IMG/VR virus record: IMGVR_UViG_3300031760_000017
Source of the DNA: a virus
Length of the DNA: 29,896 bases
Strand: one strand, 5' to 3'
Shown here: in pieces, positions 3 through 20,815 of the stretch
Layout of the letters: each line of letters begins with the position of its first letter
How positions within the stretch are numbered: the stretch's first letter is position 1
Notes under the pieces: model-generated
What the model was told of the DNA's origin: nothing
Databases searched by the model: none
The model's input: the letters and a program-made list of their open reading frames with translations, nothing else
Translations under genes and position numbers: made by a program

Positions 3-693
3 GTGGCTGCCGCTTTTGGTTGTAAAATGGTTCTTGGTTCAGATGCTCATTATCTTAAAAAAGAAGATAGATATGTACATAAAGCATATCTTAATTCAAA
101 AGGTGGAGAGCGTGAAGTTGATGCGTTTTATGAATACGCATATCTTCAAGATGAAAATGATATAAAAGAAAACATTTTACCATCTGAATTAAACTATGAT
201 GAGTTAGTTTTTAATTCATATGAAATTTATAATAAAATTAAAAATTATGATATTAGACATCAACAAACAATTCCAAAAGTGAAAGTTAAAGATTATCCAA
301 AAGAAGATGAAGAATTAAAAAATAAAAATCATAATGGAATAAGATTTTTTAATGATAAATATCCTATTTTAGCAAATATGAAAAAATCTGAAGATATTTA
401 TGAGAGATATTGGGTAAACGAATGTATTAATAAATTAGATAAACTACGTTTATATAATAATAAATACCTTTCTCGATTAGAAGAAGAAGCGGATATTAAG
501 AAAACTATTAGTGAAAAATTAGGAACTAATATGTTTAGTTATCCAATAACTCTTCAACATTACGTTGACCTCTTTTGGGAGTGCGGAAGCACAGTTGGTG
601 CGGGACGTGGTTCATCTTGCTCAGGGTTAAATCATTATCTTTTAGGCATTACTCAGCTTGACCCAATTAAATGGGATCTTCCGTTCTGGAGAT
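3..693 (+). CDS. DNA polymerase III alpha subunit (DnaE/PolC family), exon 1. It is 5'-truncated by the window edge. It contains the PHP domain and the conserved GAGRGSSCSGLNHYLLGITQLDP...FWR stretch.
   Basis: The ORF 3..704 translation matches the DnaE PHP/palm motif GPGRGSAAGSLVAYxLGIT-DPL-FxxLFERFLN. The reading frame is broken after FWR by the intron. Exon 2 continues with YLNKERVELGDIDLDLC, which aligns with DnaE FLNPERVSMPDFDVDFC. Confidence 0.85.
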
Positions 694-1729
694 TAGAACT
701 TTAAGAAATAGTCTCCCTATACTGTGAAGTATAGTATAAAAAATTTTGTGAACTCTATTGCTCAGAGGTGTGTAAAGAACGTTAAGTATTTAGTAGGAAA
801 TGACTAATTAATCTTTATGCTAACAGGGGAGCCTTAGCAAGTAAAGTTGAAGGTAATCCAGTGCCAAGCCTATTATTAGGAAGGTGTAACGACTATCCGA
901 AAGGAGTAGGGCAGATGATGAGCTACTGCTCGAAGTGCAAAAATCTTTAAATATTTTCTACCACTTTGGTCAAAGTGGGATAAATTAATTAATCGAATTT
1001 TTATATATAATAGAGAGATATAGAAAGGAGATTAATAATATGTTAATCTATAAAATAACGAATTTAATAAATAATAAATGTTATATTGGTCAGACAATAA
1101 AAACTGCTGAATAGAGATGGAAAGAACATCAAAGTCATGCATTTGGCTCGCATTTAAATGATCAAAATAAAACTTTATATAAAGCAATAAGAAAATATGG
1201 TCTTGAAAATTTTACTTTTGAAGTTCTTCAAGATAATATTGAAACTTTTGAACAATTAGATAAGGCAGAAATTTATTGGATTGATTATTATAATAGTTTT
1301 GTAAAAGGATATAATGAAACTTTTGGTGGTCAACAATATCATAAAATTCTACCAAATAAAGAGATTATAGAAGATTATTACAAAACAAAAAGTGCTAGAA
1401 AAACTGCTTTAAAATTTGGAATAGATCATTCTACAGTAGATGACATTTTAAATCAAAATAATATTCCAAGATTCAGTTTTAGAGAAGCCACAGGAAAAAG
1501 AATTAAAATTTCAAAAGATGATTTTGAAAAAGATTTTAATTCAGTTAAAGATTGTGCTGAATGGTTTGTAGAAAATCAAATCTGCAAAACTAAAAATGTA
1601 GAAAGCGCAAGAGCTGGATTAAAAACTGCAAGATCATCTAAAGGAAATGGCTTATATTATGGTTATTTAATAGAAAATATTTAAAGAATAAGATATAGTC
1701 TGTGCCATTAGAAATAATGGAATTACACG
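694..1729 (+). mobile_element. Group I self-splicing intron in the DNA polymerase gene.
   Basis: The 5' exon end ggagaU (688-693) pairs with an internal guide gtctcc (711-716), including a U.G wobble at the splice site. Conserved R/S-like P7 elements gactatc (891-897) and aagatatagtct (1690-1701) are present. A P9-like hairpin ccatta..taatgg follows. The terminal omega-G at 1729 leaves the splice in frame (FWR-Y-LNKERV). An internal HEG has its own RBS. Confidence 0.8.
1040..1684 (+). CDS. GIY-YIG homing endonuclease encoded within the polymerase intron. It contains one in-frame TAG at 1112-1114.
   Basis: The N-terminus reads MLIYKITNLINNKCYIGQTIKTAE-TAG-RWKEH, the GIY..YIG...R..H motif as in I-TevI and Seg proteins. 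The RBS aaaggag lies 8 nt upstream. The C-terminal region is a basic DNA-binding tail. The TAG interrupts the motif and must be read through. Confidence 0.8.
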
Positions 1730-4356
1730 ATTTAAATAAAGAACGTGTTGAGTTAGGCGACATAGACTTAGATCTTTGCCCTTCAAAACGTCCATTAATT
1801 CTTCAAAAAATAAAAGAAGAACGTGGTCAGAATTTTAATAAAGATATTGATGATTTAAGTAGAAAAAACCTTGGTTGTACACTTATTGCGACTTTTGGTA
1901 CAGAAGGAACTAAATCAGCAGTATTAACAGCTTGCCGCGGTTACCGCTCAGAAGATTTTCCAGACGGGATTGATGTTGATACAGCTCAGTTTTTATCTTC
2001 TTTGATTCCAAGTGAAAGAGGTTTCTTATGGCCTCTTAAAGATGTCGTTTATGGAAATAAAGATAAAGATAGAAAACCAATTACGCCTTTTATTTCAGAA
2101 ATTAATTTATATCCTGGTCTATTAGATATTGCAATGGCGATTGAAGGATTGATAAATAAAAGGTCTAGTCATGCTTCTGGTGTTATTCTTTTTGATGAAG
2201 ACCCGTACGAGTTTGGATGTTTTATGAAAACTCCAAAAGGAGAAATTATAACTCAATGGGATCTTCATAAATGTGAAGCATGTGGCATGACAAAATATGA
2301 TTTCCTTGTAACAGAAGTTCAGGATAAAATTGTTCAAACAATTAAACTTCTTCAAAAAAATAATAAAATTGATAAAGACCTTTCTTTAAGAGAGGTGTAT
2401 GATAAATATCTTCATCCAGAAGTTTTACCTTTAAACGACGAAAAAATATGGAAAGCTCTTCAAAATAATAGCGTTTTAAATGTTTTCCAGTTTGATTCAG
2501 ATGTAGGATCACAAGCCGCAAAGAAAATTAAACCAACTAATATTCTTGAAATGGCGGATGCCAATGGTTTAATGCGTCTTATGACATCTGAGAAAGGCGA
2601 AGAGACGCCTATGGAAAAATATATTCGTTATAAAAATAATATCTTATTATGGTATCAAGAGATGAATCGAGCTGGATTAACAGATGAAGAGCAAAAAATT
2701 ATTGAACCATATTTCAAACAATCTTATGGAGTTCCGCCATCACAAGAGCAATTAATGAGAATGTTAATGGATAAGAATATTTGTAACTTCTCATTAAAAG
2801 AAGCTAATGCCGCACGTAAAATTGTTGGTAAAAAACAAATGGCAAAGATTCCTGAATTACATCAAAAAATCTTAGATACAGCTTCTAGTTCGTCTCTTGG
2901 TAAATATATTTGGAAATGCGGTGTTGGTCCTCAGATGGGATATTCGTTCTCTATTATTCACGCTCTTGCTTATTCTTTTATTGGAGTTCAAACAATTTAT
3001 TTAGCGACTAATTGGAATCCAATTTATTGGAATACCGCATGTCTAATTATTAATAGTGCTTCTCTTGAAGATGAAGATGACGATGAAGATGATGATGAAG
3101 ATAACACTAAAGATAAATCTACTGATTATTCTAAATTAGCAAAAGCTATTGGAGATATAACTTCAAAAGGAATTAAAGTATCATTAATTGATATTAATAA
3201 ATCTGGATATAGTTTTGAACCAGATGAAGAAAATAATGAAATTCTTTTTGGATTAAAAGGTGTTAATAAAATTGGCGGTCCAGTTATTGATAAGATTATT
3301 GGCGGTCGCCCCTACACTGGAATTATTGATTTTATGAATAGATGCCCGCTAAATAAAACTCAAATGATTTCATTAATTAAGTCAGGAGCTTTTGATAAGG
3401 TTGATAATAATTGGGCATCAGAAATCTGTAAAGAAAACCCAAGATATGCAATAATGGCGTATTATATATCAATAGCTAGTGAACCAAAGAAAAAATTAAC
3501 ATTACAAAATTTTAATGGATTATTAAAAAATAAATTAATTCCAGAAAGTTTACTTAAACAACAACAGATTTTTATATTTAATAAATTTCTTAAAGAAAAT
3601 AAAAAAGTTGGTAAATACTATGTTTTTGATGAAGGTTCTTTAAATTTTTATTCTTATTACTTTGATTTAAATGAATTAGATGTTATTAATGGAATTACTT
3701 GTATTCTTCAAAGTAGATGGGATAAAATTTATAAGAGAGAAATGGATGAAGTTAGAGGTTGGTTAAAAGAAAATCAAGAAGAGGTTTTAAATCAATATAA
3801 TAACTTATTATTTAAAGAAACTTGGAATAAATATGCAACTGGAAACGTTTCTGCTTGGGAGATGGAAAGTTTATGTTTTTATTATCATGAACATGAATTA
3901 CTTAATATTGATAATTATAAATATGGAATTGTAAACTTTTCATCTTTATCAGAAGAGCCAGTAGTTGATTATTTCTTTAAGAGAGGAGATAGAAAAATTC
4001 CAATCTTTAAATTATATAGAATTGCTGGAACAATTATTAGTAAAAATAATACTAAAGCATCTATCACCATTTTAACAACAGATGGAGTTGTAAATGTAAA
4101 ATTTACAAAAGAATATTATGCTATGTTTAATCGTCAAATTTCTGAAAAGCAACCAGATGGTACTAAAAAAGTATTAGAAAAAGGTTGGTTTTCTCGTGGT
4201 ACAAAAGTTTTAATCACAGGATTTAGACGAGAAGACACCTTTGTAGCAAAAACTTATAAAGCAACTCCTACTCATCAATTATATAGAATCATCAATGTAA
4301 ATGATAAAAAGATTACCTTAGAACATGAAAGGATAAACGCAAATGTAGAAGATTAA
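1730..4356 (+). CDS. DNA polymerase III alpha subunit, exon 2 (palm/fingers/OB region). It has an acidic low-complexity insert EDEDDDEDDDEDN at about 3058-3100.
   Basis: The ORF 1702..4356 (884 aa) has no in-frame TAG, TAA or TGA. It runs LNKERVELGDIDLDLCPSKR...GVILFDEDPY...QWDLHKCEACGMTKYDFL and has DnaE-like order. It ends with TAA. Confidence 0.85.
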
Positions 4357-4987: not shown

Positions 4988-5215
4988 ATGATTATATTAT
5001 ATTCAACAAATTGCCCAAAATGCAATGTTTTAAAACAGAAACTACAAAATCTTAATATTGATTTTTAGATTTCTGAAGATATTAAAGAATTAATTTAGAG
5101 AGGTTTTAGAGAAGCTCCTATTTTAAAGATTGATAATTAGTATTTAAAATTTTCTGAAGCTATTCAATGGGTAAAGGAGAAAACGAAACTTGAACATAAC
5201 AATTAGACTAAATAA
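4988..5215 (+). CDS. NrdH/glutaredoxin-like redoxin. It has four in-frame TAGs.
   Basis: MIILYSTNCPKCNVLKQKL...GFREAPILKIDN matches the NrdH CxxC thioredoxin fold (compare YTRNDCVQCHATK...GFRQLPVV). The RBS gggagg lies upstream. The gene sits immediately upstream of nrdD, as in NrdH-containing operons. Confidence 0.65.
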
Positions 5216-7130
5216 AAACTTTACGACAGCTTATAATAGATTACAAGCTGAATATGGAACTTAGATTGCAAAAATAAACGGTTTTGCAGATGAGCAACTA
5301 TCTTATAATGATTTTATTAGTAATTTTATAAATGAAGATACCGTTGCGGATGCTAGTATTGATGGTAATTCAAATGTATCTCACAAAGACATTGTTACAT
5401 TACTAAATGAAATGCCTAAATCTCATAGAAAATTATTAGCTTTTAATAAAATTCATTATGAAATGCAGAAAAAATATGGTTTTAAAATAGCTAATGAGTG
5501 GTTAAAACTTGAATGGATGGGTGCATTATATATGCACGATTCTGATACATCTACTTTTAAAAGTTATTGTTTTGCTTATGATTTAAAAGATGTTGCAGAA
5601 AAAGGTTTGTTTTTCTTAGGTAAAAATTTTAATGCAAAACCGCCGCAACATTTAGGGACATTTGTTGATTTTGTAAAAGAATTTATTTCTTATAATAGTA
5701 ATAGAACATCTGGTGCAGTAGGTTTACCTAATTTAATTCCTTATATGTTTTATTTCTGGAATAAAGATATAAAAGAACACTATTGGTTAGGACCGCCAAA
5801 AAAATATGCTATTCAAAATTTTCAAAGATTTATTTATGCAGTAAATCAACCTTATGTAAGAGACGGTTCTCAATCAGCTTTTACTAATACATCAGTATTT
5901 GATCGTCCTTATTTTGAAGCTCTATTTGGAGGAAGTGTTTTCCCAGATGGAAGTTTTATGATTGATTATGAAGATGAAATTATTAATTTTCAAAAATGGT
6001 ATATGGAAACCATGTCTGCTATTCGATCTGAAAATATGATGACTTTCCCAGTAAGCACAATTTCATTGCTATATCAAGATGGTAATTTTGTAGATGAAGA
6101 TTTTGCAAAATGGGCTATTAAGCATAATATGAGATGGTCAGATAGTAATTTATTTGTAGATGATAGTGTTAATAGTTTATCTAACTGTTGTAGATTAAAA
6201 AGTAATATTGATGAACTAGGATACTTTAATTCTATTGGTGGAACCGCATTGAAAGTTGGTTCTGTAAAAGTTAATACTATAAACTTAGCTAGATTAGCTC
6301 TTGATACTGATTCGGAAGAAGAATATTTAAAAGAGTTAAAAAGAAGAACAATTATTTGCTTACAATCTTTAGATTGTGTTAGACACATTATCAAAAGAAA
6401 TGTAGAAAAAGGTTTACTTCCTAATTTTTCTTATGGATTAATAGATTTTGAACATCTTTATAATACTATTGGGTTCTTAGGCATTTATGAAACCATGAAA
6501 GCTTTTAATTATATTAAAGAAGACGAATTTGGAAATATTTTTTATACAGAAGAAGCTTCTAAATTTGGTAAAAAAATCTTTGATGTAATTCATTCAACAG
6601 CAGATGATTTTATTGAAAAAAATCATTTAGATTATAAAATAAATACAGAACAAATCCCTGGAGAAACTGCAGCTGATAAATTAATGAAAAAAGATAAATT
6701 CTTTTATCCAACTGCAACTATTTATGATTTGCCTCTTTATGGTAACCAATTTATCCCTCTTGGAATAAAAACAACATTACAAGAAAGAATTAGAATTCAA
6801 GCTTTATTTGATCATTATTGTAATGGAGGTTCAATTCTACATGCTAATATAGATGCTCCATTTGATAGTTTTGATAAAGCTTGGGATATGGTAAAATACA
6901 TAGCCGATCAAGGTGTAACGTATTTTGCTTTTAATACGAAGATTCAAGCATGTGAGGATAATCATGCTTTTTATGGGACAACATGCCCAATTTGTGGTAA
7001 ACCTATCGCAACAGAATATACAAGAATTGTTGGATTCTATACTCCAATTAGAACATGGTCTACTCATAGAAAACAAGAATATAGTATGAGGAGATGGGAG
7101 AAAATAAATGATAATAAAAGGACTAATTGA
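5190..7130 (+). CDS. nrdD: Anaerobic ribonucleoside-triphosphate reductase (class III RNR) NrdD. The likely start is TTG at 5190 after the RBS aaggag. There is one in-frame TAG at 5262.
   Basis: The track ORF 5412..7130 (572 aa, TAG-free) aligns with T4 NrdD: ...GALYMHDSD (compare GIIHVHDID), the zinc ribbon CPICG, and the glycyl-radical motif RIVGFYTP near the C-terminus. The conserved N-terminal region continues upstream of 5412 through one TAG, back to a TAA at 5172. The stop is TGA. Confidence 0.85.
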
Positions 7131-9188: not shown

Positions 9189-9232
9189 GAGGGTAGATGA
9201 TTTAATCATCTACCCTTTTATTTTTATTCATT
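9189..9232. terminator. Bidirectional rho-independent terminator between the convergent early (plus) and morphogenesis (minus) transcription units.
   Basis: Perfect 11-bp stem agggtagatga / tcatctaccct with a 5-nt loop. It is flanked by an A-tract on the left and tttatttttatt on the right. Confidence 0.8.
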
Positions 9233-9781
9233 TTCCATCGGTAAATTAGTTATAATATTTCTACCGCCGTTTGCATAAGTAGCAAAATCAATTACTTGTT
9301 TATATTTATTTACATCAAAACTTTCTACAATTTTTGCAGCAGCCTCTGCATTCGCGGGTAAATCATTAATAAATGATTGAATAATTGCCGCAACGCTCAT
9401 ATGATTCTGTATTAAAGAATCTTTAATCGCATTAAGTTGTACAAAAAGTTCATTATATTCCTCTTCATTAATAGCTTGGAAAAACTGTTCAAAGAATCCA
9501 TTACTCTTTAATGTATCATATAATTTTAATTCATCTTCTCTTTGTTTTTCAGTAAATGAAATATTTGTATATAAATACACTAAATTTAATTCAAAATAAA
9601 GATTCAATTTAAATTCATTATAAATACCATTTTCCTAAGCTTTCTGTAATGTAATCATTAATAAATCATACTTATCTCTTGCGGGAAGATATTGTAAAAC
9701 CTAAATCTTTTGTCCGCAAAAATCAAAAGTTTTAATCTATGAATTAACTTTTAATTTCATATTTGCATATGATACTTTCAT
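9224..9781 (-). CDS. Hypothetical protein (about 185 aa), last gene of the minus-strand operon. It has three in-frame TAGs.
   Basis: Its RBS is aaggagat. The track ORF 9224..9607 is its C-terminal 127 aa. The N-terminal continuation is in frame across TAGs. Confidence 0.55.
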
Positions 9782-9794
9782 TTTTTATCTCCTT

Positions 9795-11018
9795 TTAACT
9801 CCCTCTGCTTCTATTATTAATAGTTGTTTTTAATCTTTGTAAATCAGTATCAAGATTAATAGCATCAGTAATTTTTGTTTTTAAAACCTAATCTATTTTA
9901 TTATACAATCTATTTCGTGTATTTGCATCTTTTTTTGCTGTCTATTTCCAATTCTAAACGTCTTTTTTAGAAAAAGCCCCTTGACTTCTTACAACTTTTT
10001 CAGCGAAGTCAAAAATTTGTTTAAGTCCTAAAGAAGAAGCGCCGCCTCCTTTTATCCCATATTCTGTATCTCCTAAAGAAACATCGCCAGCTAAAAAGCC
10101 AGATTCATCATCAACTCCAACAACTCCACCATGACTCCATTTTTTTATATTATCCTAACTCGTTCCTTGCTAACTGAGATAAAGTCTTGTTCCATTTTCA
10201 TTACCAAATAAAAAAAACTCTACTTGATGTTCTAAATCTTTATTTTTAAATGGTGCAAAAATATGATTAAGAGCATAAGCTGCATAAGCCTAACTAATAT
10301 CTCCACCTGCAACAACAAAAACTCCATGCCATCTTTTATCAATTTTATATAATACAATTTTTAATTTTTCACGAGTTCCGTCAGTTTTTCTATATTTAGC
10401 ATGCCTATATCGCCATATTACTTCTAAATAAGTACTCCTTAAAGCCGAAAAATCAGAATTAGTAGTAGAAAACTCTATCATGTTTTTTTCTTCTTTTTCC
10501 TCATTAGTAGTTCTTTTATATTTATTTATATTATATTTAAATATCATATTACTTTTATCAAAGCCAGACAATAAATCTTCACTATCAGCAAAAAGAATCG
10601 TAGCATTATCTTCAAAAACAAAAACCATCTGAACATATTGATCTAAAATCTAATTCATTTTTTCTTGATACCACATAATATTTTTGTAAAAACTTTTTGT
10701 AGCTGTCTAATTTAAAGTAGCACTTTGCATATAATTTTTAAAAAAAGTAAAGTATTCTAATGTTTTTGAATCTATTTCATCTGGTTTTTTTGCAGCACTT
10801 TTTATATTTCTTCTAAGTTGAACTATTCGATTTCTAATTTTTCTTGATGTCGTAAGGCTTTTTATTATCTAATCATTCCTTTTTAAAAATAAAAAAGAAT
10901 AATTATAAATTTTTGCATTTATTTCATCAATTTCAGGTTGAGTCATTTCAATAGCATTATCACCAAGTTCTTCATATATACGTTTTATTTCATTTTGATC
11001 AGTAACTATTGAAGCCAT
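9795..11018 (-). CDS. Hypothetical protein (about 407 aa) with nine in-frame TAGs. It has a Gly/Asp-rich conserved-looking block, HGGVVGVDDESGFLAGDVSLGDTEYGIKGGGASSLGLK.
   Basis: The track ORF 10290..10628 is an internal fragment. Frame continuity runs from the ATG at 11018 (RBS aggtga) to TAA at 9795. Confidence 0.5.
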
Positions 11019-11049
11019 TTTATATCACCTATATTTATTTTTTAAAAAA

Positions 11050-11078
11050 AATAAGGGGAATATTTATATTCCCCTTAT
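11050..11078 (-). terminator. Rho-independent terminator downstream of the 330-aa structural gene.
   Basis: Minus-strand hairpin aaggggaatat-aaat-attcccctt followed by a T-run. Confidence 0.65.
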
Positions 11079-11098
11079 TAAATTAAAGATTATTGTCA

Positions 11099-12091
11099 TT
11101 AATCTCTTGATTCATCAAATTCATCTGTCTCACTTCCATTAACAGAGTCCTCATAAGATTCTTCAATAGAAGCTCTATTAGCTGGATGCGGGAAGATAGT
11201 GCTTGTTGTATCTGTTACACCAGTTGAATCATCAACAATTTGAATTGCACAAAGAACTTGTTTCTTTCTATCAAAATAAGTATATCCTGGGAAAGCGTCC
11301 ATAGTAAAAGTAAATGTACTAGGATCTCCAGTAGATGCCATTGAGAAAGTAAAGTTAGATTGAATTTTTACGTTAGGAAGTGTAATATTTGCAGGTAAAT
11401 CTTTTCCGTCTGCCTGACGTCTAAATAAAGTATCTGCTTCAACATAGTAGTATCCAGCAAAATGACCTGCATCAATTTGAAGTTCAGAAACAGTATCAGC
11501 TTTTTTCTTTACATAATAATCAACCATAACTGTTCCATTTGTAGGAGCAGTTCCAGTTCCCGCATATTCAAGAGTTCTTCCTTTGATTGTTTTTGTATTA
11601 GTGTTAGTTGTAGCACTTACTCCATAATCTTTATAAATATCACCAGTTAAATCTCCATACTCGTCAATATTCATAATATACAATGGAGCTGTTGAACAGA
11701 TTTCTTCAGTTGGTTCAAGAGCATCATCTAAATTAATAACTCCAGTTGCGCCAATTGTTGCCATAGATGTTTGATGGAAATGAATAAGATCACTTGTATT
11801 CTTCGCTCCCTTTACAACACCAGCACCAGAAAGCATAGCAAAACTAATTGGAGAAAGAAGCGCATCTTCAACAGTGAATGTTAAAGTTTTTTCACCTTCC
11901 CAAGAAATTAAACGAGTATTTCCGCGACCACCTGTTGCGTACACTGTAGTAGCCGCACCTTCTAATGTAGAGGTTTTTGCAGAGTCAAGATAAAAAACTG
12001 GCTGTCCTTGTTTAAAAATAACATTACCAATTTTCTGATCATTCTTTGCTCTAAAGACTACATTAACAATTTCACGTACACCAAATTTCAT
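11099..12091 (-). CDS. Major virion structural protein (330 aa, TAG-free), probably the major tail protein or tube. It has a Thr/Gly-rich Ig-like C-terminal region.
   Basis: It has a strong RBS aaggagg and a long TAG-free ORF. It is flanked by its own terminator. Its position is downstream of the capsid and connector genes. The composition (TxT repeats, beta-rich) is typical of major tail proteins. Confidence 0.55.
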   Translation of the reverse strand: MKFGVREIVNVVFRAKNDQKIGNVIFKQGQPVFYLDSAKTSTLEGAATTVYATGGRGNTRLISWEGEKTLTFTVEDALLSPISFAMLSGAGVVKGAKNTSDLIHFHQTSMATIGATGVINLDDALEPTEEICSTAPLYIMNIDEYGDLTGDIYKDYGVSATTNTNTKTIKGRTLEYAGTGTAPTNGTVMVDYYVKKKADTVSELQIDAGHFAGYYYVEADTLFRRQADGKDLPANITLPNVKIQSNFTFSMASTGDPSTFTFTMDAFPGYTYFDRKKQVLCAIQIVDDSTGVTDTTSTIFPHPANRASIEESYEDSVNGSETDEFDESRD

Positions 12092-12146
12092 TTGGATTTC
12101 CTCCTTATATTTTGTACAAAATATTGATTGTCTTTATTTAGTTATT

Positions 12147-12881
12147 TTATTCATGAATATCTTTTAGCCAATCTTCTGGATCATCCATTCCAGAACATCC
12201 TGCGGCTTTAAATCTCTACCAAGAATCATAACGCAGTTTTAATTCAAATCGGTTAAATTCATCCATTAATTGATAAATAGTATAATTCATTAAATCATTT
12301 ATATTTTTTTTCTCGCCAACAGCAAGAATGGAAACATAACGACTTAATATAGCAATTTTAGAATCAGGCGCCAGCTTCGCCTTTTTCTATCTACCTCTTT
12401 TTATCTTATCGGCAATTTTTTGAGCTAACTATCCACTTGGATTATACTATTTATTTTCTTTATTTGTGAGACAAAACATAGTAATAATAATTTCTTTAAA
12501 AGCTTCAAAATTATCTTCATTTATTTCATTAACTTCTCCAGTCTAATTATCACGTAATTGTATTGCCCCTTTTTCCAATAAAATTTCTTTTGTTGGAAAT
12601 AATAATGCAAGAAGAGATAAAACATTTAATTTAGCCTAATAAGCCTATAAATTTTTTTCTTGTATTATCATCATTATTATATTAAAATTTGACATATTTG
12701 ATAAATCAATTTTGTCCTAATCTATTAAATTTTCTTTATTAAATTTTAATATTTCACATCCAGGCCAAAATTGCTTCTAAGTAATGTATGCTATTTCTTT
12801 TAATCGCGGCTGATGAATTGTTAATTGAGCCTAAGGGAAAGGTAAATCATTACCAGATAATAATAATAATTCATCAATCAT
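12147..12881 (-). CDS. Hypothetical protein (about 244 aa) with 11 in-frame TAGs.
   Basis: The ATG overlaps the upstream stop (ATGATTGA). The frame is continuous apart from TAG codons and ends with TAA. Confidence 0.45.
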
Positions 12882-13482
12882 TTTTTGGAATCCATCCATG
12901 CGAACTTGGTAATACATCATCTGTCCCATGGATAGCTGAATATACCATAGTATAACCAGATAAAGTTTCATCTAAAATTAATTCATTGCAACCTGCAAAT
13001 TGAAAGGTGCCTATTCCAGATAAACGTGCTTTGTTAAGAATTCCATCAATATAGCCCGCAATTTTTAAAGGTCTAATTCTAAAATTTCCTAAATCCCAAT
13101 AATCAGTATGACAAAGAATATCAATATTAACATTACAATCTCTAAATTCAGGATTTCTCATATTTGGTCTAAAATTATCAAAACTAATTAATAAATAACT
13201 TTTAACCTATTCATGTTCAGGCATCTTTATTTTAGGCTCAAACTTTATATAACCTTGCTATCTTAATTTAGCTAAACTCATATCTTTAATAGCATTTTGA
13301 TAAACCGTACTTGTTTTATTATCTAAACAATCTTTTGTATTTATTACTAACAATCTTTTTAATTCATCACTATAAGGTTGACTAGTCACAAAAAGTCTTT
13401 TTAAAATTTCTTCTAAGTCTTTCTAGCATGATAAAAAAGATGAAGTAAAATCAACAGGTCTTAAAGCTAAATCTCTCTTCAT
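12874..13482 (-). CDS. Hypothetical protein (about 202 aa) with three in-frame TAGs, a possible neck or tail-completion protein.
   Basis: The RBS aaaaggag precedes it. The track ORF 12874..13161 is its C-terminal 95 aa. Confidence 0.5.
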
Positions 13483-13507
13483 ATATTTTATCTACTCCTT
13501 TTGTCTC

Positions 13508-14488
13508 TTATAAAGATATAATCTTTACATCTAATTTAATATCTTCTTGTCCTTCTACTCTATATATTAAAGTAAAAGACTTAAGTTTTCCTTCTATCTC
13601 TAATGGAAGAATCTTTAAAGAACTATTTAAATCCTTTTCTTCTTCTCCCCATAACAAATACCAATGTCCATTTTCAGCATTACATATCTCATAATATGCT
13701 TTACTATATTGTTGCACTTGAGTGGGACCATTAATATATGCGGCAGTTTCGTCTATAGGATCTTGTTGTCCAGTCTATTGATTTTCTTTAGCAGTTGCTT
13801 CCGCAATAGTATTCTCAAAGAATTCATCTAAAAATACTTGAATTATACCATCACCATAATAAGGATCAACACCTACCACTTGCCAAGTTTTCTCAACGTT
13901 TTTTCTTGGATCTAAAACTTTAATTGTTTTAAATCTTTCAAAATAATTATTTGTGTTTTCATCAGCTGTAATATACATAACTAATGAATAATTTATAGTG
14001 TTCCATTCAATTCCAGACTTTTGTGACCATTCAATAGAAGTTTCAACTGGACCTCTAATATAAACCCAATAACTTTTATCCCCTACTTGAACCTATTGAT
14101 CACATCTGCGGATTTCTGATCTAAAATAAGCATCTTCTTCAAGAAACTCTAAATAAACTAACCAATGTGTATTAGTCTATTTCCAAGTAAAAACGTTTCC
14201 TGGTCTCATATTAATATCAACTTCTCCATCAGAAGTTTTGCCTATTTTTGGCGCATTTAAACATATATCTCTATATGGAATTGAAATAATTTTATTATCA
14301 TAGGCGGGTTTATTTTTATCAGGGTTGATTAAACATCTAAACTATCTTCCATCTTCTAGAACTGCGGTTGCCGCCTGATAAGAATATAATAAAGCTTTTT
14401 TTAAACTTCTTAATTTGTCATTAATAAATCTTTGCTATTGATTCCCGCCATGATATTGCAATCTTTTATTTAATAATTCTAATGACAT
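13508..14488 (-). CDS. Hypothetical protein (about 326 aa) with five in-frame TAGs.
   Basis: The track ORFs 13508..13717 and 13775..13978 are in the same frame, separated only by TAG. Upstream continuity runs to the ATG at about 14488. Confidence 0.55.
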
Positions 14489-14799
14489 ATCTTTTCTTTC
14501 AATTCATTCATTAGTCCTAAACATTCAAAAATAGTTCTACGATAACATAGAAAATCATCCTCTTTAGTTAATGAATAAAGTCCTTCTAATTTATTTAATA
14601 ATGGGAAAAAAATTTCCGAATATTTTTCTCCTATTAGTCTTTTCATACCAATAAGTTCTTCTAAAATTGTTTCTAAAGGTTTTTGCCAATCTAAACCTTC
14701 TTCTCGACTAGGTAAAAGTTTATATGTTTGATTAATAAGGTTTTGCAATCTATTTGAAATTACATTATTCTAAATATTAATGTTATATTTTAATAACAT
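14470..14799 (-). CDS. Hypothetical protein (about 109 aa) with two in-frame TAGs.
   Basis: The track ORF 14479..14748 is its core. The start overlaps the upstream stop (ATAATG). Confidence 0.45.
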
Positions 14800-15338
14800 T
14801 ATTCTTCTCCCATTCTCTTTTTATAATTTTTTTCTTCTAAATTAACAGAAGAAAATTTAACAGGTTGCATAATTTTTCCAAAAGTAGATCGCATGACTCC
14901 CTATTCATCTGGTATTCTTCTTTTATATAAACGTTGTAAATGAAAACCTTCTCTTTCATAATCCTTTTTTAATTGAAGAAGTTTTTGCATATGATTTGCT
15001 TGTGAGGTAAATTTAAAATCTGTTCCGCTATATTTCATTCTAGTATTCTAAACACTAGCTAATTGCTGACTTAACCACTAAACAATCATATACACCGCTA
15101 AAATATTTATCTCTTCACGTGTCAACTCATTGTTAAAACAAAAATATTCTTCACCATTTTCTTCTAATTTTTGATAATCCCATAGATTAATTCTAGGAAA
15201 TTCAAATTTTTCAATAGCAGAAATTAATAATTCCTATAACATTCTATGAGTATCCTATAAAGTTAACTAAAGGTACATATCATCAGTAATTTTTGAAAGA
15301 AAAGAATCATATACTAATGAAAATGGAGTAGTATTCAT
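14799..15338 (-). CDS. Hypothetical protein (about 179 aa) with six in-frame TAGs, a candidate head-tail connector or adaptor.
   Basis: It runs continuously from the ATG (RBS aggggg) to TAA. It lies just downstream of the capsid module. Confidence 0.45.
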
Positions 15339-15354
15339 TTATACACCCCCTAAA

Positions 15355-15924
15355 TTAATTGTTTGGTTTATATCTTCTACCTGTTGGCGCGGCAGTCTGT
15401 TTAATCGGCGTAGCTCTTCTAGTTGTCTGTTTTGTAGCAGAATTTAAAATATTTTCTTCTCCGCTATCAAATTTAGTATTTTTAATTTCAATTGCTTTAC
15501 TAACATCAAATCCAAGTTTTTCTTGAATTGCATTTCTTTTGCTTACATCATTAAGAGGAAGATTAACTGCCATATCTTTAATATTTTCTAAAACGGATTC
15601 TGGAGCAAAATCTAAACAATCTAAAAATTGCTCTAAAGTACCAACTTTCATAAGCTCTTCTATATCTTTATTAGAATAATGATATTCTGGTTCTGGTTCT
15701 TTCCCGAAGAGTATCTTCGCAGCTTCTTCATCTTTAATTTCAAGATATTCACTTAATATAACCTTACCGCCAGGTAAAAAAGAAAGTCTTTCTAATTCAT
15801 TAAAACTTATCTATTTTTGTTCATGCGGATAAAAATCTCTATGAACTCTTAAATCTGGTACATCATATCCAACAGTGCCACCAAATTTATTAACAACTTT
15901 TATCATACTGTTTTTATCTATCAT
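15355..15924 (-). CDS. Hypothetical protein (about 189 aa) with one in-frame TAG.
   Basis: The track ORF 15355..15651 is its C-terminal 98 aa. The N-terminal continuation runs to the ATG at 15924 with a strong RBS aaaaggag. Confidence 0.5.
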
Positions 15925-15961
15925 ATTTTAAAAATCTCCTTTTATCTCCTATATAGTAGAA

Positions 15962-15992
15962 AAAAGGGAGAATTAAAAATTCTCCCTTATTA
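15962..15992 (-). terminator. Rho-independent terminator or attenuator immediately downstream of the major capsid gene.
   Basis: Hairpin gggagaat-ttttaa-ttctccc followed by a T-tract on the minus strand. Confidence 0.7.
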
Positions 15993-16111
15993 TATTTTTT
16001 GCACGTTTAGGCCTATTCCAGACTAATCTATATTAAAAACATCTTCCTCTGGAACACCCCATAAACTTGTGGGGTCATTATTCAATCTTTCCCAAGCTGA
16101 AATAGACCCAA

Positions 16112-17209
16112 TTAGTTTCCCCATGATGGGTCTTGGTCTAGTCCAGGCATAGCCTTAACTAAACTAACATTCTTATATACACAAATACCAGGATTAATCA
16201 TATAAGTAGCAACACCAAGTTTTTGATAAGTCTGGATTTCTGTTGACCAATCGCGGTTTTCAAAAGATTTTACTTGAGCAGCTCCTTCAAAAGCTACTTT
16301 AACAGGTTTCTCTGCTCCAGTAGGAATAATCCAAGCGTATGATGGATCAATTACTTTTTCACTATTAGTTTCATCTGTAAAAGACTGCGGAAGAATAATT
16401 ACTTGATGTCCTTTGTAAGTTCCTAAAGAACCATTATTCCAAATCTGTTCTTTCATTCCATCAGACATCGCATTCCAGTTTAATGAAGCCTGGTTGTTAG
16501 CAATAGTTGTAGGAGCCATTGTTGCAGCAAATTCAAATGTACAATAAATTGTACTCTTACCATAAACGTCTGCTGTCATAAGAAGCTGATCCATTGCCGC
16601 TTCATTAAATCCAGTCTGAGCTGTTTTATTTGTAGCAGGAATATTTAAAACTGTAGCTTCAAGAGCTTTTGCAATTTCACGATAAACTGCTTCATCCATT
16701 CCTTCAAGTACAAGACTATAATAATCATTCATAGTCATACGACCATCAAGAAGTTCTTCCCATTCAATACGAGAAGCGCCTCCATAAGCAGCTGTCGGTA
16801 CTTCAAGTGAATATCCATCAAGCTTGAAGACTTCATATCTACCTGCTAAACCAACTCTTGTTACAAACTGTTTAGCACGTTTCTTAGAAGCTTCACTGAT
16901 TCTTACTTTATAAACAGGTCTTGTTCCTTGCGCGAATGTACGAACATCAGCAAACTGTCCATAATTCTGAAGGACCTTTTGCGGAAGAACTTCTGTAAGA
17001 CCTACTTCAATAAGTGTATAAATAAGATTTTTATTTTCTCTAAAATCTTGAGGAGTCGCCCCAAGTTCGTTTAATTCTTTAATAAAAGTTTTATTCAGAG
17101 CTTCTGCTGAAAGCTTTTCTCCACCAAAAGAAAAAGCAGTAGAAGGATTTAATGATGCTTTCGCATTGGCTCTAGCTAATTCAATAAGCTGATCTCTTGT
17201 TAATGCCAT
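16112..17209 (-). CDS. Major capsid protein (HK97 fold, 365 aa). It is TAG-free.
   Basis: Track ORF with a strong RBS aaggagg. The length and sequence character are typical of phage major capsid protein. It is followed by a terminator and preceded by the scaffold-like and head genes. Confidence 0.8.
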   Translation of the reverse strand: MALTRDQLIELARANAKASLNPSTAFSFGGEKLSAEALNKTFIKELNELGATPQDFRENKNLIYTLIEVGLTEVLPQKVLQNYGQFADVRTFAQGTRPVYKVRISEASKKRAKQFVTRVGLAGRYEVFKLDGYSLEVPTAAYGGASRIEWEELLDGRMTMNDYYSLVLEGMDEAVYREIAKALEATVLNIPATNKTAQTGFNEAAMDQLLMTADVYGKSTIYCTFEFAATMAPTTIANNQASLNWNAMSDGMKEQIWNNGSLGTYKGHQVIILPQSFTDETNSEKVIDPSYAWIIPTGAEKPVKVAFEGAAQVKSFENRDWSTEIQTYQKLGVATYMINPGICVYKNVSLVKAMPGLDQDPSWGN

Positions 17210-17226
17210 TGTCTTTTTCCTCCTTA

Positions 17227-17775
17227 TTACTGAATTCTCTGAAGTTTAACACCAGGGGTTCCATCCGGCATTGTATAATGATCTGTTGCATTATCTTTTA
17301 CGACCTTAAAAATAGGACCATCACCTTCTCCGACAACAAGGAATCCATTTTCACCAACATGAAGTTTCTGTCCTTTGGTCGGGAAAGTTTGTGTAACTGC
17401 TACATTCGGACCTGTACCAGCCGCAAAAGTATTAGTAGTAAAAATATCACCAATATTAGTTTTAATTAAACGAGGATACATTTTTCCATCAGAAAAATCC
17501 TCGGGTTTATATACAAAATCTTTATGACTTTGAAGTCTTTCATCATAAAGTTTTTCTTCATTATAAACAAGCATAAATTCGCCATCTTCAGCAGTAAAAT
17601 TTACTTCACCAGCTGCATAATCATATTTAGCAAACTGACCCTGCTCAAGCTGTGTAATACTAGCAGCTGCAGGTAGTTGTGCATAAATCTGACCAGTTAC
17701 AATACCAGACAGATGATTAGGTTCAACTTGTCCATAACCAATTCTTTTAGTTAAGTCTCTTGCCATTTTTAGCAT
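17227..17775 (-). CDS. Head protein (182 aa, TAG-free), possibly a decoration or scaffold-associated protein.
   Basis: Track ORF with RBS aggagg. It sits between the scaffold-like gene and the capsid gene. Confidence 0.45.
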   Translation of the reverse strand: MLKMARDLTKRIGYGQVEPNHLSGIVTGQIYAQLPAAASITQLEQGQFAKYDYAAGEVNFTAEDGEFMLVYNEEKLYDERLQSHKDFVYKPEDFSDGKMYPRLIKTNIGDIFTTNTFAAGTGPNVAVTQTFPTKGQKLHVGENGFLVVGEGDGPIFKVVKDNATDHYTMPDGTPGVKLQRIQ

Positions 17776-17789
17776 CCTCCTAAAATTAA

Positions 17790-19133
17790 TTAACCAAGTT
17801 TCTCTTGTTCTTTAACAGCTTTCACCCATTCTGGCAGGCTGTCATTTTTATCACTATCTAATGTATATGTGATAGTTTTTTCTTCATTATTTTCTTCTTT
17901 CTCTTTTAAAGAAAAACTAACTTTTTTATCAAAACAAATAACTGAAAGTTTTGCTTTAATTTCTTCTAAAGTGTACTTCTACTTATTACTAATAACATCT
18001 GCTTTATCTTCTTCAGAAAGCATATAGAATTCAGCAATAAGTGCATCCTTTTTCTGATTATCAATTTCTCTTTTAAATTTCACGAGTTCTTGATATTGAT
18101 TTTGAAGAGTCTAATAAGAAGTTTTTAAAGCTTCAAGCTAATTTTCAATTAATTCATATTTTTTTGCTTTTTCCTTATCTTTATCATCATCTTCATCATC
18201 TTTATCTTCATCATCTGATGAATCTTCAGAAGAGTCTTCTTTATCTTCAGTTTCAGATTTGTCTTCTTTATCATCATCTTTTTTTACATAATCAGCAGGA
18301 ACAGAAGCATCTTCCATTTGATCAACCGTAGAAATTGTTGTATCAATTTCTTCTTCAACTTGAGTAAACTCAGTTACAGCAGTATCAGAAGTTTCATTCT
18401 CAACAACCACAGTTTTTTCAAGATTATCCATCTGTTGTCCTCCTCCGTCTAAGGCATTCTTTAAATCTTGCATCATACTAAAAAGTGTATGCCTAAAATT
18501 ATCGTCTAATGTAAATTTCAAACTTACATCTGGAGCCGTTACAGAAGCGCCTTCGAAGCAAGGCTCAACATCGTCTCCTAATATACAAATTTTTTGAATA
18601 ATTGCATCATTTATAATAAAGAAGTCTAATCCATTTTCATAATTTTTTTGCCAATTTCCTTTTAAGGTTTCTGGTTTAAATTCCATTGATTGCGGACGAC
18701 CTTCATTCACAGGTAAGCTGGATTCTGGAAATTGATCAGTCCAAAGATAACCTGTTGTCATAAGATATTTTCTTACAACAGTATTACCCATACCATCGCT
18801 ATCCTAAAAATCTTGAAACCAAACTTTTGCATCAGGAGATACAAAACCATAAGGAACAGTTTGACATTCGAATTTTACTCCTTCATCATCAATAATAACT
18901 TTTTCTCCATGATCTGTAAAATCTTCTTTACTATCTCTATAATAACCTACAATTGGCGCGCCTCGAAGACTTTTCCCAATTTCAACAGCAACCTATTTAG
19001 AAATAAAACTATGGTTTCTATTTGCGCCAAGATAAAATACTTTAATATCACATTTAGACATTAAAGGATTTATATCAAGAGGTTGAAGATTTAAAAATTC
19101 AGGAGAGCTTATCGTTGCAACTGATTGGTGCAT
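17790..19133 (-). CDS. Scaffolding / prohead-protease-like protein (about 447 aa) with five in-frame TAGs. It has a strongly acidic DE/S-rich linker and a coiled-coil C-terminus.
   Basis: The track ORF 18138..18791 is the middle segment. The frame continues upstream to the ATG at 19133 (RBS aaaggag) and downstream through TAGs to TAA at 17790. Its position is between portal and capsid. Confidence 0.55.
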
Positions 19134-20753: not shown

Positions 20754-20815
20754 ATTAAAGCCTTTTTTCTTTATCTATGCCATTCGATTTATCAACTTTA
20801 GATACCTCTCCTTCT

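What the first reader, a model, noticed from the sequence alone, without database searches (positions are those of the whole stretch)
694..1729. Group I intron with a GIY-YIG homing endonuclease splits the DNA polymerase III alpha gene
The polymerase reading frame stops at 704, although the conserved sequence (FWR | Y LNKERVELGDIDLDLC) continues at 1730. The intervening 1036 nt have a P1 pairing (exon ggagaU with guide gtctcc 18 nt into the intron). They also carry the conserved P7-like elements, a P9-like hairpin and a terminal G. The GIY-YIG ORF sits in a peripheral loop with its own RBS. Splicing restores an in-frame FWRYLNKERV junction that matches DnaE FERFLNPERV. Group I introns in DnaE-type replicative polymerase genes of phages are uncommon.
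Basis: partly seen in the sequence, partly recalled or inferred. Interest (0 to 1): 0.7.

Follow-up and report, generated by a model that had tools for sequence, protein, structure and literature searches.

The report
Mobile intron splitting a phage polymerase

Summary
Window 694-1729 is a group I intron (subgroup IA-like, with P7.1 and P7.2) in a DnaE-type polymerase gene.

Joining 693 to 1730 gives ...LPFWR|YLNKERVELGDIDLD. Intron-less alleles of the same phage family read exactly this sequence, one of them 98% identical in protein.

I derived a full fold, P1 to P9.0, with the P3/P7 pseudoknot and a terminal G. On 19 related introns, 97% of pair cells are paired, against 39-46% in slid controls. 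24 pairs carry compensatory changes, including two in P1, where the exon changes from GGAGAU to GGCGCU and the guide from GUCUCC to GGUGCC.

The I-TevI-like GIY-YIG gene (1040-1684) lies in the P8 loop.

This is not decay, because the whole window is TAG-to-Gln recoded and the endonuclease gene is under purifying selection. Sister lineages carry up to five TAGs, or TGAs at Trp codons, in the same gene.

A recoded intron endonuclease in an early gene was already reported for 'Agate' phages (Borges et al.). Verdict: a real feature and a new member of a known kind, of modest interest.

The parts
3..693 (+). DnaE-type polymerase, exon 1. It is cut by the window start and ends in TGG AGA T.
   Evidence: Pfam DNA_pol3_alpha, profile positions 19-92. 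Colinear with uninterrupted SPbeta YorL and VRE9_4 polymerases. No in-frame TAG.
694..1729 (+). Group I intron, 1036 nt, subgroup IA-like.
   Evidence: Fold with covariation. Core region 855-912 is 86-88% identical to an intron that passes Rfam RF00028. Absent from allele L081.
688..716 (+). P1: exon 688-693 (GGAGAU) pairs with the internal guide 711-716 (GUCUCC). The U693-G711 wobble marks the 5' splice site.
   Evidence: In L026 and L027 the exon is GGCGCU and the guide GGUGCC, giving two compensatory pairs and one GC-to-GU change.
717..734 (+). P2 hairpin, 7 bp, with a GUGA tetraloop.
   Evidence: 5 of 7 pairs show double changes; 100% of cells are paired.
753..807 (+). Two peripheral hairpins: P2.1 (753-756 with 764-767) and P2.2 (790-794 with 803-807).
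   Evidence: 2 of 4 and 4 of 5 pairs show double changes.
814..820 (+). P3, 5' strand. It pairs with 937-943 and forms a pseudoknot with P7.
   Evidence: 82.7% of cells paired. There is one A-A mismatch, which becomes U-A in two lineages. There are no double changes, so this helix is the weakest. Its position matches P3 in the Rfam alignment of the related Klebsiella phage intron.
823..884 (+). The P4-P5-P5a-P6 domain: P4 823-828 with 857-862; P5 832-835 with 850-853; P5a 838-840 with 847-849; P6 864-865 with 883-884, plus a hairpin 869-880.
   Evidence: Rfam RF00028 fragment 823-895 matches model positions 60-148. P5 and P5a have compensatory changes. The P6 hairpin differs in sequence between lineages but always forms a hairpin, and L008-L010 and L021 carry a 112-nt insertion in its loop.
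891..896 (+). P7, 5' strand (GACUAU). It pairs with 1695-1700, the helix that holds the guanosine-binding site in group I introns.
   Evidence: Invariant in all 19 introns. The same sequence occupies this place in the Rfam-positive Klebsiella phage intron.
897..931 (+). P7.1 (897-898 with 903-904, GAAA loop) and P7.2 (909-914 with 926-931).
   Evidence: P7.2 has 4 of 6 pairs with double changes and 100% of cells paired.
937..943 (+). P3, 3' strand.
   Evidence: See P3 5' strand.
944..960 (+). P8, 5' strand. It pairs with 1671-1687.
   Evidence: A 17-nt perfect inverted repeat across 710 nt. In L015 a one-base deletion in each strand keeps the pairing.
979..1044 (+). Hairpin that ties up the ribosome-binding site (AAAGGAG, 1024-1030) and the spacer before ATG 1040. 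The main arms are 989-1006 and 1018-1035.
   Evidence: The minimum-free-energy fold gives the same two-tier hairpin in every one of the 14 distinct sequences folded, although their sequences differ. Its regulatory role is inferred.
1040..1684 (+). GIY-YIG homing endonuclease gene, 214 codons, in the P8 loop, with an in-frame TAG (read as Gln) at 1112-1114. The last codons and the TAA stop lie inside the P8 3' strand.
   Evidence: Pfam GIY-YIG, 31.3 bits against a cut-off of 22.6. I-TevI catalytic domain, E 4.8e-6. PHROG homing endonuclease families. 493 homologs. dN/dS 0.09-0.18. Codon 25 is CAA in L022.
1671..1687 (+). P8, 3' strand. It overlaps the codons for I-E-N-I and the stop codon.
1688..1700 (+). 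J8/7 (1688-1694) and the P7 3' strand (1695-1700, AUAGUC).
   Evidence: Rfam fragment 1690-1719 matches model positions 221-251. Invariant in all 19 introns.
1702..1729 (+). P9.0 (1702-1704 with 1726-1728), P9 hairpin (1705-1710 with 1715-1720, GAAA loop) and the terminal G at 1729.
   Evidence: P9.0 has 2 of 3 pairs with double changes and P9 has 2 of 6. The terminal G is invariant.
1730..4356 (+). DnaE-type polymerase, exon 2. It starts with AT, which completes the Tyr codon T|AT.
   Evidence: Pfam DNA_pol3_alpha positions 94-259, DNA_pol3_finger and HHH_6. No in-frame TAG among 30 Gln codons.

Best explanation
Window 694-1729 is a mobile group I intron of the phage IA type. It sits in phase 1 between the Arg and Tyr codons of ...FWR|YLNKER..., nine codons before the D-I-D-L-D motif of a DnaE-type polymerase gene.

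**Host phage.** The window comes from a phage related to SPbeta. An identical contig carries YomU/YomV/YomW/YonB-type structural genes, and related contigs are about 130-146 kb. The phage reads TAG as glutamine.

**Splicing (inferred).** After transcription the RNA folds into P1-P9 with the P3/P7 pseudoknot. Exogenous guanosine bound in P7 attacks after U693 of the U-G wobble in P1. The freed exon end then attacks after the terminal G1729. This joins TGG AGA T to AT TTA and restores one polymerase reading frame. The fold is shown by covariation and the junction by intron-less alleles. The chemistry is inferred from what is known of the family.

**Homing (inferred).** The P8 loop holds an I-TevI-like GIY-YIG endonuclease gene. 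Its presumed role is to cut intron-less alleles during co-infection, so that repair copies the intron in.

**Timing of the endonuclease (inferred).** Two features appear to hold its expression back. A conserved hairpin ties up its ribosome-binding site. An in-frame TAG at codon 25 stops translation unless TAG is being read as Gln. The polymerase exons contain no TAG. The end of the endonuclease ORF forms the 3' strand of P8, so a ribosome reading to the end of the ORF would unwind the ribozyme core. Stopping early at codon 25 would therefore protect splicing.
For: **Junction**
- The upstream and downstream pieces match adjacent parts of one Pfam domain.
- A single tblastn segment spans the junction in SPbeta YorL and Enterococcus phage VRE9.
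- Intron-less alleles in the same family read LPFWRYLNKERVELGDIDLD; P0122/L081 is 98% identical in protein.

**Fold**
- 84 pairs are 97% paired across 19 introns, against 39-46% when partners are slid.
- 24 pairs have double changes, against 1-5 when slid; 0 of 500 shuffles reached the observed value.
- P1 covaries with a synonymous Arg codon change in the exon.
- A 17-bp P8 stem closes the ORF loop.

**Homology to known introns**
- The core matches 119 phage records by blastn.
- It is 86-88% identical over 58 nt to an intron that scores 70.6 bits on RF00028.
- Rfam fragments in the window are colinear with the model.

**Endonuclease**
- GIY-YIG domain hits.
- dN/dS is 0.09-0.18, including within the clade that carries the TAG.

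**Recoding**
- Reading through TAG raises long-ORF coverage from 16.2 to 26.5 kb.
- There are about 95 in-frame TAGs and no gene ends in TAG.
- TAGs in sister endonuclease genes fall where others have CAA.
- The polymerase has 0 TAG among 35 Gln codons.

**RBS hairpin:** conserved across lineages despite different sequences.
Against: - No RNA or biochemical data exist; splicing, cleavage and timing are all inferred.
- Rfam RF00028 does not reach its gathering score on the window. The best fragments score 21.5, 16 and 14.2 bits.
- P3, P4, P7 and most of P8 are invariant or nearly so, so covariation says nothing about them. P3 and P4 each contain one mismatched position in most sequences.
- P10 is weak and ambiguous.
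- No suppressor tRNA was found in the window or in seven fetched loci, so the agent that decodes TAG has not been seen.
- TAG codons also occur in nucleotide-metabolism genes next to the polymerase. 'Recoded' therefore does not simply mean 'late' in this phage.
Confidence: 0.93

Rival explanations
1. The ribozyme is intact, but the endonuclease gene is a dead pseudogene. On this view the TAG at codon 25 is a plain nonsense mutation, and the intron in this phage splices but can no longer home.
For: In the standard code the ORF stops after 24 codons. There is no in-frame ATG, GTG or TTG downstream of the TAG (one search lists no ORF there). Most homologs have Glu at this codon, and GAG to TAG is a single step. 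No suppressor tRNA was seen.
Against: About 95 in-frame TAGs occur in 25 of 34 candidate genes of the window, and no gene ends in TAG. The 189 codons after the TAG remain open. Their dN/dS is 0.15-0.18 between members of the clade that carries the TAG. L022 has CAA (Gln) at the same codon. Sister lineages carry five TAGs at positions that are CAA elsewhere, or TGA at invariant Trp codons.
Confidence: 0.04
2. The polymerase is truly split into two polypeptides by a free-standing endonuclease gene, as in 'fractured' or split phage genes, and no RNA splicing takes place.
For: Gene callers report two polymerase pieces with a GIY-YIG gene between them. Rfam finds no intron at its threshold.
Against: The break falls inside a codon, in phase 1. 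The upstream frame runs only three codons past the junction. The downstream piece has no ribosome-binding site or start codon at the junction; the first in-frame start is GTG 1702, inside P9.0. The flanking 390 nt fold into a group I core supported by covariation, including a guide sequence that tracks the exon. Intron-less alleles are exact fusions of the two pieces.
Confidence: 0.02
3. Another kind of intervening element, such as an intein, a group II intron or an insertion sequence.
For: None beyond the fact that the gene is interrupted.
Against: The insert is not in frame with the polymerase, since there are stops in frame at 702 and beyond. No reverse transcriptase or domain V was found, and there are no terminal inverted repeats. 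Group I signatures are present.
Confidence: 0.01

Closest known systems
Phage T4 td intron with I-TevI (group IA2 intron with a GIY-YIG homing endonuclease)
   Same: Both are IA-type ribozymes with extra helices between P7 and P3'. Both carry a GIY-YIG endonuclease looped out of a peripheral helix. The catalytic domain aligns to I-TevI structures 1mk0 and 1ln0 (E 4.8e-6). A hairpin over the ribosome-binding site of the endonuclease resembles the I-TevI translational control; that comparison rests on my own knowledge of the T4 literature.
   Different: Here the ORF lies in the P8 loop; to my knowledge the td ORF lies in P6. The host gene is a DnaE-type polymerase rather than thymidylate synthase. 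The ORF carries a recoded stop codon. Its 3' end forms one strand of P8.
The 'group I intron endonuclease inserted in an early gene' of TGA-recoded Agate phages (Borges et al., bioRxiv 10.1101/2021.08.26.457843)
   Same: That work covers gut phages of about 127-154 kb with standard-code, TGA-recoded and TAG-recoded members. It describes an intron endonuclease enriched in recoded stops inside an early gene that uses the standard code, and proposes that the stops delay endonuclease production. The family found here has the same size range, the same mix of codes and the same arrangement.
   Different: The paper gives no gene name, coordinates or intron structure in its main text, so I could not confirm that it is the same intron. 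Its statistics are for the TGA lineage; the window belongs to a TAG lineage and has only one recoded codon.
The interrupted DnaE-type polymerase genes of Enterococcus phages EF1/EF5 and Staphylococcus phage SPbeta-like 2
   Same: The same gene family is split in the same conserved region, just before the D-x-D motif.
   Different: Their insertion site is 9 codons downstream (ELP|D[VI]DID). The EF1 endonuclease is HNH, not GIY-YIG. No sequence similarity to this intron was detected at those loci, and Rfam did not confirm them at threshold.
Group I introns of T7-like Klebsiella phages (for example RCIP0099) and other phage polymerase introns
   Same: The P4'-P6-P7-P7.1 core is 86-88% identical over 58 nt. 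Helices are in the same order, and J8/7 carries GAUAUAGUC.
   Different: Those introns are about 210 nt, carry no ORF in the RNA core and pass RF00028 (70.6 bits). Their host genes and phage families differ.

Membership tests
Group I intron | P1 helix between the end of the 5' exon and an internal guide sequence, with a U-G wobble at the splice site | tested here: met
   688-693 pairs with 711-716. All cells are paired in 19 introns, with two compensatory pairs in L026 and L027.
Group I intron | Conserved core P3-P9 in canonical order, with the P3/P7 pseudoknot | tested here: met
   All helices were placed. 97% of cells are paired against 39-46% in slid controls, and 24 pairs show double changes. 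The order matches the Rfam alignment of a related intron. P3, P4 and P7 themselves are conserved rather than covarying.
Group I intron | Terminal G at the 3' splice site, with P9.0 and P7 next to it | tested here: met
   G1729 and P7 (GACUAU with AUAGUC) are invariant. P9.0 covaries.
Group I intron | Match to the Rfam RF00028 covariance model at its gathering score | tested here: inconclusive
   There is no hit at gathering. Colinear fragments score 14-21 bits. The model also misses relatives L013, L015 and L031, which carry the same intron, and the interrupted polymerase genes of EF1 and Staphylococcus SPbeta-like 2. It does pass the ORF-less relative in L001 (70.6 bits).
Group I intron | Guanosine-dependent self-splicing | not testable with these tools
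   This needs in vitro transcription with GTP, or RT-PCR.
Group I intron, subgroup IA | Extra helices P7.1 and P7.2 between P7 and P3' | tested here: met
   P7.1 is 897-904 with a GAAA loop. P7.2 is 909-931, with 4 of 6 pairs covarying. Assignment to IA2 in particular is from memory of the classification and was not tested.
GIY-YIG homing endonuclease (I-TevI-like) | N-terminal GIY-YIG catalytic domain with the conserved Tyr, Tyr, Arg, His, Glu and Asn residues | tested here: met
   Pfam PF01541 scores 31.3 bits against a cut-off of 22.6. The alignment to I-TevI 1mk0 covers IY..YIG..RWKEH..E..GYN.
GIY-YIG homing endonuclease (I-TevI-like) | C-terminal DNA-binding module | tested here: inconclusive
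   Only weak PHROG matches cover residues 99-193: intron-encoded nuclease at 3e-5 and DNA-binding protein at 4e-4. No Pfam domain was found there.
GIY-YIG homing endonuclease (I-TevI-like) | Presence or absence of the element at one site among close relatives, the signature of homing | tested here: met
   The same site is occupied in more than 20 loci and empty in L081, L082 and several database proteins.
GIY-YIG homing endonuclease (I-TevI-like) | Site-specific cleavage of the intron-less allele | not testable with these tools
   This needs the protein and a substrate such as TTCTGGAGAT|ATCTTAATAAAGAACG (L081).
TAG-to-Gln recoded phage (code 15 type, as in Agate, crAss-like and Lak phages) | Many in-frame TAGs that restore long ORFs, and TAG not used as a terminator | tested here: met
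   Coverage rises from 16.2 to 26.5 kb. There are about 95 in-frame TAGs, and all stops are TAA or TGA.
TAG-to-Gln recoded phage (code 15 type, as in Agate, crAss-like and Lak phages) | TAG aligns with Gln in homologs | tested here: met
   Tested within the endonuclease family only. TAG at codons 31, 42, 64 and 72 of L013 or L015 is CAA in most other lineages. Window codon 25 is CAA in L022.
TAG-to-Gln recoded phage (code 15 type, as in Agate, crAss-like and Lak phages) | Phage-encoded suppressor tRNA (anticodon CUA) or a release-factor change | tested here: inconclusive
   No tRNA was found in the 29.9-kb window or in seven loci of about 20 kb each. Most of each genome was not held.
DnaE-type (Pol III alpha) polymerase | DNA_pol3_alpha, finger and HhH domains, colinear with uninterrupted homologs | tested here: met

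The most novel reading that the evidence does not exclude
The recoded stop codon in the intron's endonuclease gene acts as splicing insurance, and is not just a by-product of the phage's code.

The ORF ends inside P8, three bases from J8/7. A ribosome that reads to the end of the ORF would melt the ribozyme core of the polymerase pre-mRNA. An early in-frame TAG (in other lineages several TAGs, or TGAs at Trp codons), together with the hairpin over the ribosome-binding site, would keep ribosomes out of the core until the code switch. By then enough polymerase has been made.

The independent gain of different recoded stops in the same gene in sister lineages, while the host polymerase stays free of them, would be convergent selection for this timing.
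Probability: 0.3. Interest if true: 0.55.

Novelty: new member of a known kind. Interest (0 to 1): 0.35.

Why it matters
**Annotation.** The polymerase of this phage group should be annotated as one spliced gene, and the endonuclease as a 214-residue protein read with TAG as Gln. Standard pipelines would report two polymerase fragments and a truncated or missing endonuclease.

**A comparative data set.** The family gives a clean natural case for group I introns. The guide sequence tracks a synonymous codon change in the exon. Occupied and empty alleles exist at 98% protein identity.

**The recoding hypothesis.** The same intron endonuclease carries TAG in some lineages, TGA in others and no recoded stop in others still. 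This is a convenient system for testing whether stop-codon recoding times protein production during infection. The idea has been published but, as far as I found, not tested for an intron endonuclease.

Tried and rejected
- **Rfam at gathering score on the whole window:** no hit.
- **The best Rfam fragment is spurious.** It aligns 640-734 to the 3' part of the model (positions 166-253, 21.5 bits). It arises because the P1 loop, guide and P2 (TAAGAAATAGTCT..hairpin) resemble J8/7-P7'-P9 (direct repeat D5). L013 and L015 have different P1 loops, so I treat the resemblance as chance.
- **My first pairing for P7.2** (904-909 with 927-932) was dropped in favour of 909-914 with 926-931, which covaries.
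- **An outer P5 pair G831-U854** was dropped, because L013 has A and C at those positions.
- **A simple P10** of 706-709 with 1730-1733 is only 4 A-U pairs. The alternative, 700-705 with 1731-1736, is longer but not conserved in L015. P10 is left tentative.
- **A second, ORF-less intron before nrdD:** rejected. The 75-codon ORF at 4988-5215 is a separate glutaredoxin-like gene with TAG codons. The window's NrdD is a different, divergent type from the ATP-cone NrdD of relatives.
- **Promoter and terminator scan of 600-1800:** not above chance, so no claim is made for an internal promoter.
- **tRNA scans:** none found.
- **Rfam on the EF1 and Staphylococcus SPbeta-like 2 loci:** no hit, so I could not confirm that those interruptions are group I introns.
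- **Literature search** for group I introns in phage dnaE: nothing specific found.
Full report
**1. The observation**

The plus-strand frame that begins at the window start encodes part of a DnaE-type polymerase and stops at TAA 702-704. The frame resumes at 1730. Joining 693 to 1730 gives TGG AGA T|AT TTA AAT, which reads ...DLPFWR|YLNKERVELGDIDLD.

Pfam places profile positions 19-92 of DNA_pol3_alpha in the upstream piece and 94-259 in the downstream piece. The finger and HhH domains follow.

The six exon bases GGAGAU (688-693) are complementary to GUCUCC (711-716), with U693 pairing to G711 as a wobble. The last intron base is G1729.

**2. The junction is right, and the gene is single elsewhere**

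A tblastn search with the spliced protein gives single segments across the junction in Bacillus phage SPbeta YorL and in Enterococcus phage VRE9 polymerases, at 41-44% identity. Both align as DLPHWR|HIHKSRPDLPDIDID (SPbeta YorL) and D-MSWR|HLAESRPELPDVDID (VRE9_4).

A search of the large protein collection found uninterrupted alleles in the same phage family. All of them read LPFWRYLNKERVELGDIDLD. P0122 is 98% identical over the region. Its contig (L081) has TTCTGGAGAT|ATCTTAATAAAGAACG with nothing inserted, and is 86.5% identical in DNA to the window's joined exons.

The polymerase is not made as two polypeptides in relatives, and the site is occupied in some close relatives and empty in others.

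**3. The RNA fold**

Rfam reports nothing at its gathering score. With permissive settings, RF00028 gives colinear fragments: 823-895 matches model positions 60-148, and 1690-1719 matches 221-251. A third fragment at 640-734 I consider spurious.

A 17-nt perfect inverted repeat, 944-960 with 1671-1687, closes the ORF into a loop directly before the AUAAGAUAUAGUC motif.

The core at 823-938 matches 119 phage records by blastn. These include Staphylococcus, Klebsiella, Escherichia and Pseudoalteromonas phages, and one match carries an Intron_gpI annotation. The Klebsiella phage RCIP0099 match lies inside a 209-nt element that scores 70.6 bits on RF00028. Its alignment shows the same GUAACGACUAUCCGAAAGGAGUAGGG string and the same order of helices.

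To test the fold directly, I collected the same intron from relatives, using the endonuclease protein as a handle. I located the exon boundaries in each. I then aligned 19 distinct introns with the ORF removed.

The structure in window coordinates is:

| Element | Pairing or position |
|---|---|
| P1 | 688-693 with 711-716 |
| P2 | 717-723 with 728-734 (GUGA loop) |
| P2.1 | 753-756 with 764-767 |
| P2.2 | 790-794 with 803-807 |
| P3 | 814-820 with 937-943 |
| P4 | 823-828 with 857-862 |
| P5 | 832-835 with 850-853 |
| P5a | 838-840 with 847-849 |
| P6 | 864-865 with 883-884, plus a variable hairpin |
| P7 | 891-896 with 1695-1700 |
| P7.1 | 897-898 with 903-904 (GAAA loop) |
| P7.2 | 909-914 with 926-931 |
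| P8 | 944-960 with 1671-1687 |
| P9.0 | 1702-1704 with 1726-1728 |
| P9 | 1705-1710 with 1715-1720 (GAAA loop) |
| Terminal G | 1729 |

Across the 84 pairs that were counted (the variable P6 hairpin was left out), 97.0% of cells form standard pairs, against 39-46% when the 3' partners are slid by 1-3 columns. 24 pairs carry changes on both sides, against 1-5 in the slid controls. None of 500 shuffles reached the observed values.

The clearest case is P1. In L026 and L027 the Arg codon is CGC instead of AGA, so the exon reads GGCGCU, and the guide reads GGUGCC instead of GUCUCC. That gives two compensatory pairs and one GC-to-GU change.

P2, P2.1, P2.2, P5/P5a, P7.2, P9.0 and P9 all covary. 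P3, P4, P7 and most of P8 are conserved, so covariation is silent on them. P3 and P4 each have one position that is mismatched in most sequences. In L015 a one-base deletion in each strand of P8 keeps the pairing.

The helices P7.1 and P7.2, lying between P7 and P3', fit subgroup IA.

**4. The endonuclease gene and the TAG codon**

ATG 1040 follows AAAGGAG (1024-1030). The frame runs to TAA 1682-1684 but contains TAG at 1112-1114, which is codon 25.

The protein has a GIY-YIG domain (Pfam, 31.3 bits). It aligns to the I-TevI catalytic domain structures (E 4.8e-6) and matches PHROG homing endonuclease families.

The TAG is not a sign of decay, for these reasons:

- **The whole window is recoded.** Reading TAG through raises coverage by stop-to-stop ORFs of at least 100 codons from 16.2 to 26.5 kb. 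It also produces a clean tiling of minus-strand genes from 9224 to 26347.
- **TAG is used as a sense codon, not a terminator.** About 95 in-frame TAGs occur in 25 of 34 candidate genes, and no gene ends in TAG.
- **TAG aligns with Gln.** In sister lineages the same endonuclease gene has five TAGs (L013/L014 and L015/L016). These include codons 31, 42, 64 and 72, which are CAA in most other lineages. At codon 25 itself, L022 has CAA.
- **A second recoding occurs in the same gene.** L026 and L027 instead have TGA at codons 27 and 175, and L028 at codon 175. These codons are TGG in every other lineage.
- **The gene is under purifying selection.** dN/dS of the endonuclease gene is 0.09-0.18, including between members of the clade that carries the TAG.

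The polymerase exons have no TAG among 35 Gln codons. In relatives whose endonuclease gene has five TAGs, they have at most one.

**5. Further anatomy bearing on expression**

The last four sense codons and the stop codon of the endonuclease gene form the 3' strand of P8. This stretch is almost invariant across lineages.

The 66 nt before the ATG fold into a two-tier hairpin that covers the ribosome-binding site and spacer. The same hairpin appears in all 14 distinct sequences folded, although their sequences differ.

I infer that endonuclease translation is held back by two means, the hairpin and the recoded stop, and that this protects folding of the ribozyme on polymerase pre-mRNA. This step is not shown by any data here.

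**6. Context and prior knowledge**

An ENA contig identical to the window carries SPbeta-type structural genes (YomU, YomV, YomW, YonB). Related contigs are 130-146 kb.

Borges et al. (bioRxiv 10.1101/2021.08.26.457843) describe 'Agate' phages. These have large genomes (a ~127 kb lineage was analysed in detail) and include standard-code, TGA-recoded and TAG-recoded members. The paper states that a group I intron endonuclease inserted in an early gene is preferentially recoded with TGA, and that in-frame stops should delay its production. The family found here fits that description. I could not confirm that it is the same intron, because the paper's main text names no gene.

GenBank records of Enterococcus phages EF1/EF5 and a Staphylococcus SPbeta-like phage already show the same polymerase gene interrupted nine codons downstream; EF1 carries an HNH endonuclease annotated as 'Phage intron'. 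Relatives of the window phage carry further endonuclease genes between pieces of the polymerase and nrdD genes.

**7. Verdict**

The feature is a classical mobile group I intron with a GIY-YIG homing endonuclease, in a gene family and phage group where such elements turn out to be common.

The recoded endonuclease ORF is the most interesting aspect, but the idea is already in the literature. I rate it a new member of a known kind, with modest interest.

Noticed in passing
window 4337-29209, whole window: The phage reads TAG as a sense codon, apparently Gln. About 95 in-frame TAGs occur in 25 of 34 candidate genes, and every gene ends in TAA or TGA. Reading TAG through raises long-ORF coverage from 16.2 to 26.5 kb. 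A few genes have none: the DnaE exons, the YomU-like tube gene 11099-12133, and the genes at 16112-17245 and 17227-17811.
   Followed up: partly
window 4988-5215 and 5175-5412: A 75-codon glutaredoxin/NrdH-like ORF has in-frame TAGs. The NrdD gene probably starts upstream of the listed ATG 5412, at TTG near 5187, and reads through in-frame TAG there. This NrdD is a divergent type without an ATP-cone. It is only about 23% identical to the ATP-cone NrdD found at the same place in relatives such as L011.
   Followed up: partly
L026, L027 and L028 (endonuclease codons 27 and 175); L013-L016 (five TAGs each): The same intron endonuclease carries different recoded stops in sister lineages. Some have TGA at invariant Trp codons, some have several TAGs at Gln positions, and some have none (L008-L011, L021-L023). 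Genetic code therefore differs among close relatives that share one intron.
   Followed up: partly
L008, L009, L010 and L021; alignment A1 columns 196-310: A 112-nt insertion sits in the P6 hairpin loop of the intron in one lineage. Its ends pair with each other (AUAAUA.. with ..UAUUAU). Its nature is unknown; it could be an extended P6 arm or a small inserted element.
   Followed up: no
window 702-714 and 1689-1701: A direct repeat, TAAGAAATAGTCT and TAAGATATAGTCT. The P1 loop plus guide resembles J8/7-P7' and draws a spurious Rfam alignment. It is not conserved in L013 or L015, so it is probably chance.
   Followed up: yes
window 1730-1737 compared with L081 and L082: Most intron-bearing alleles (L015/L016 are the exception) start exon 2 with ATTTAAAT, which is complementary to UUUAAG at 700-705 and could form P10. 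Intron-less alleles have ATCTTAAT or ATCTGAAT. This may reflect co-conversion or co-adaptation of the flanking exon sequence.
   Followed up: no
L013 12035-12859; L082 7308-9477; L008 14522-16797; L009 16284-17210: Relatives carry further GIY-YIG or NUMOD3 endonuclease genes between pieces of the same polymerase gene (after the finger domain) and between pieces of nrdD. Several more introns probably exist in this phage family. Several database polymerase fragments end abruptly at ...GIEGL or nearby, which suggests another insertion site about 130 codons downstream.
   Followed up: no
window 773-782 and 1737-1746: The 10-mer TAAAGAACGT occurs identically in the intron and in exon 2, 8 nt after the splice site. 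It is only partly conserved in relatives and is probably chance in AT-rich sequence.
   Followed up: no
L081 984-1111: The end of this short intron-less contig matches the polymerase gene in reverse orientation at 95% identity. This is probably an assembly artefact and does not affect the junction region.
   Followed up: no
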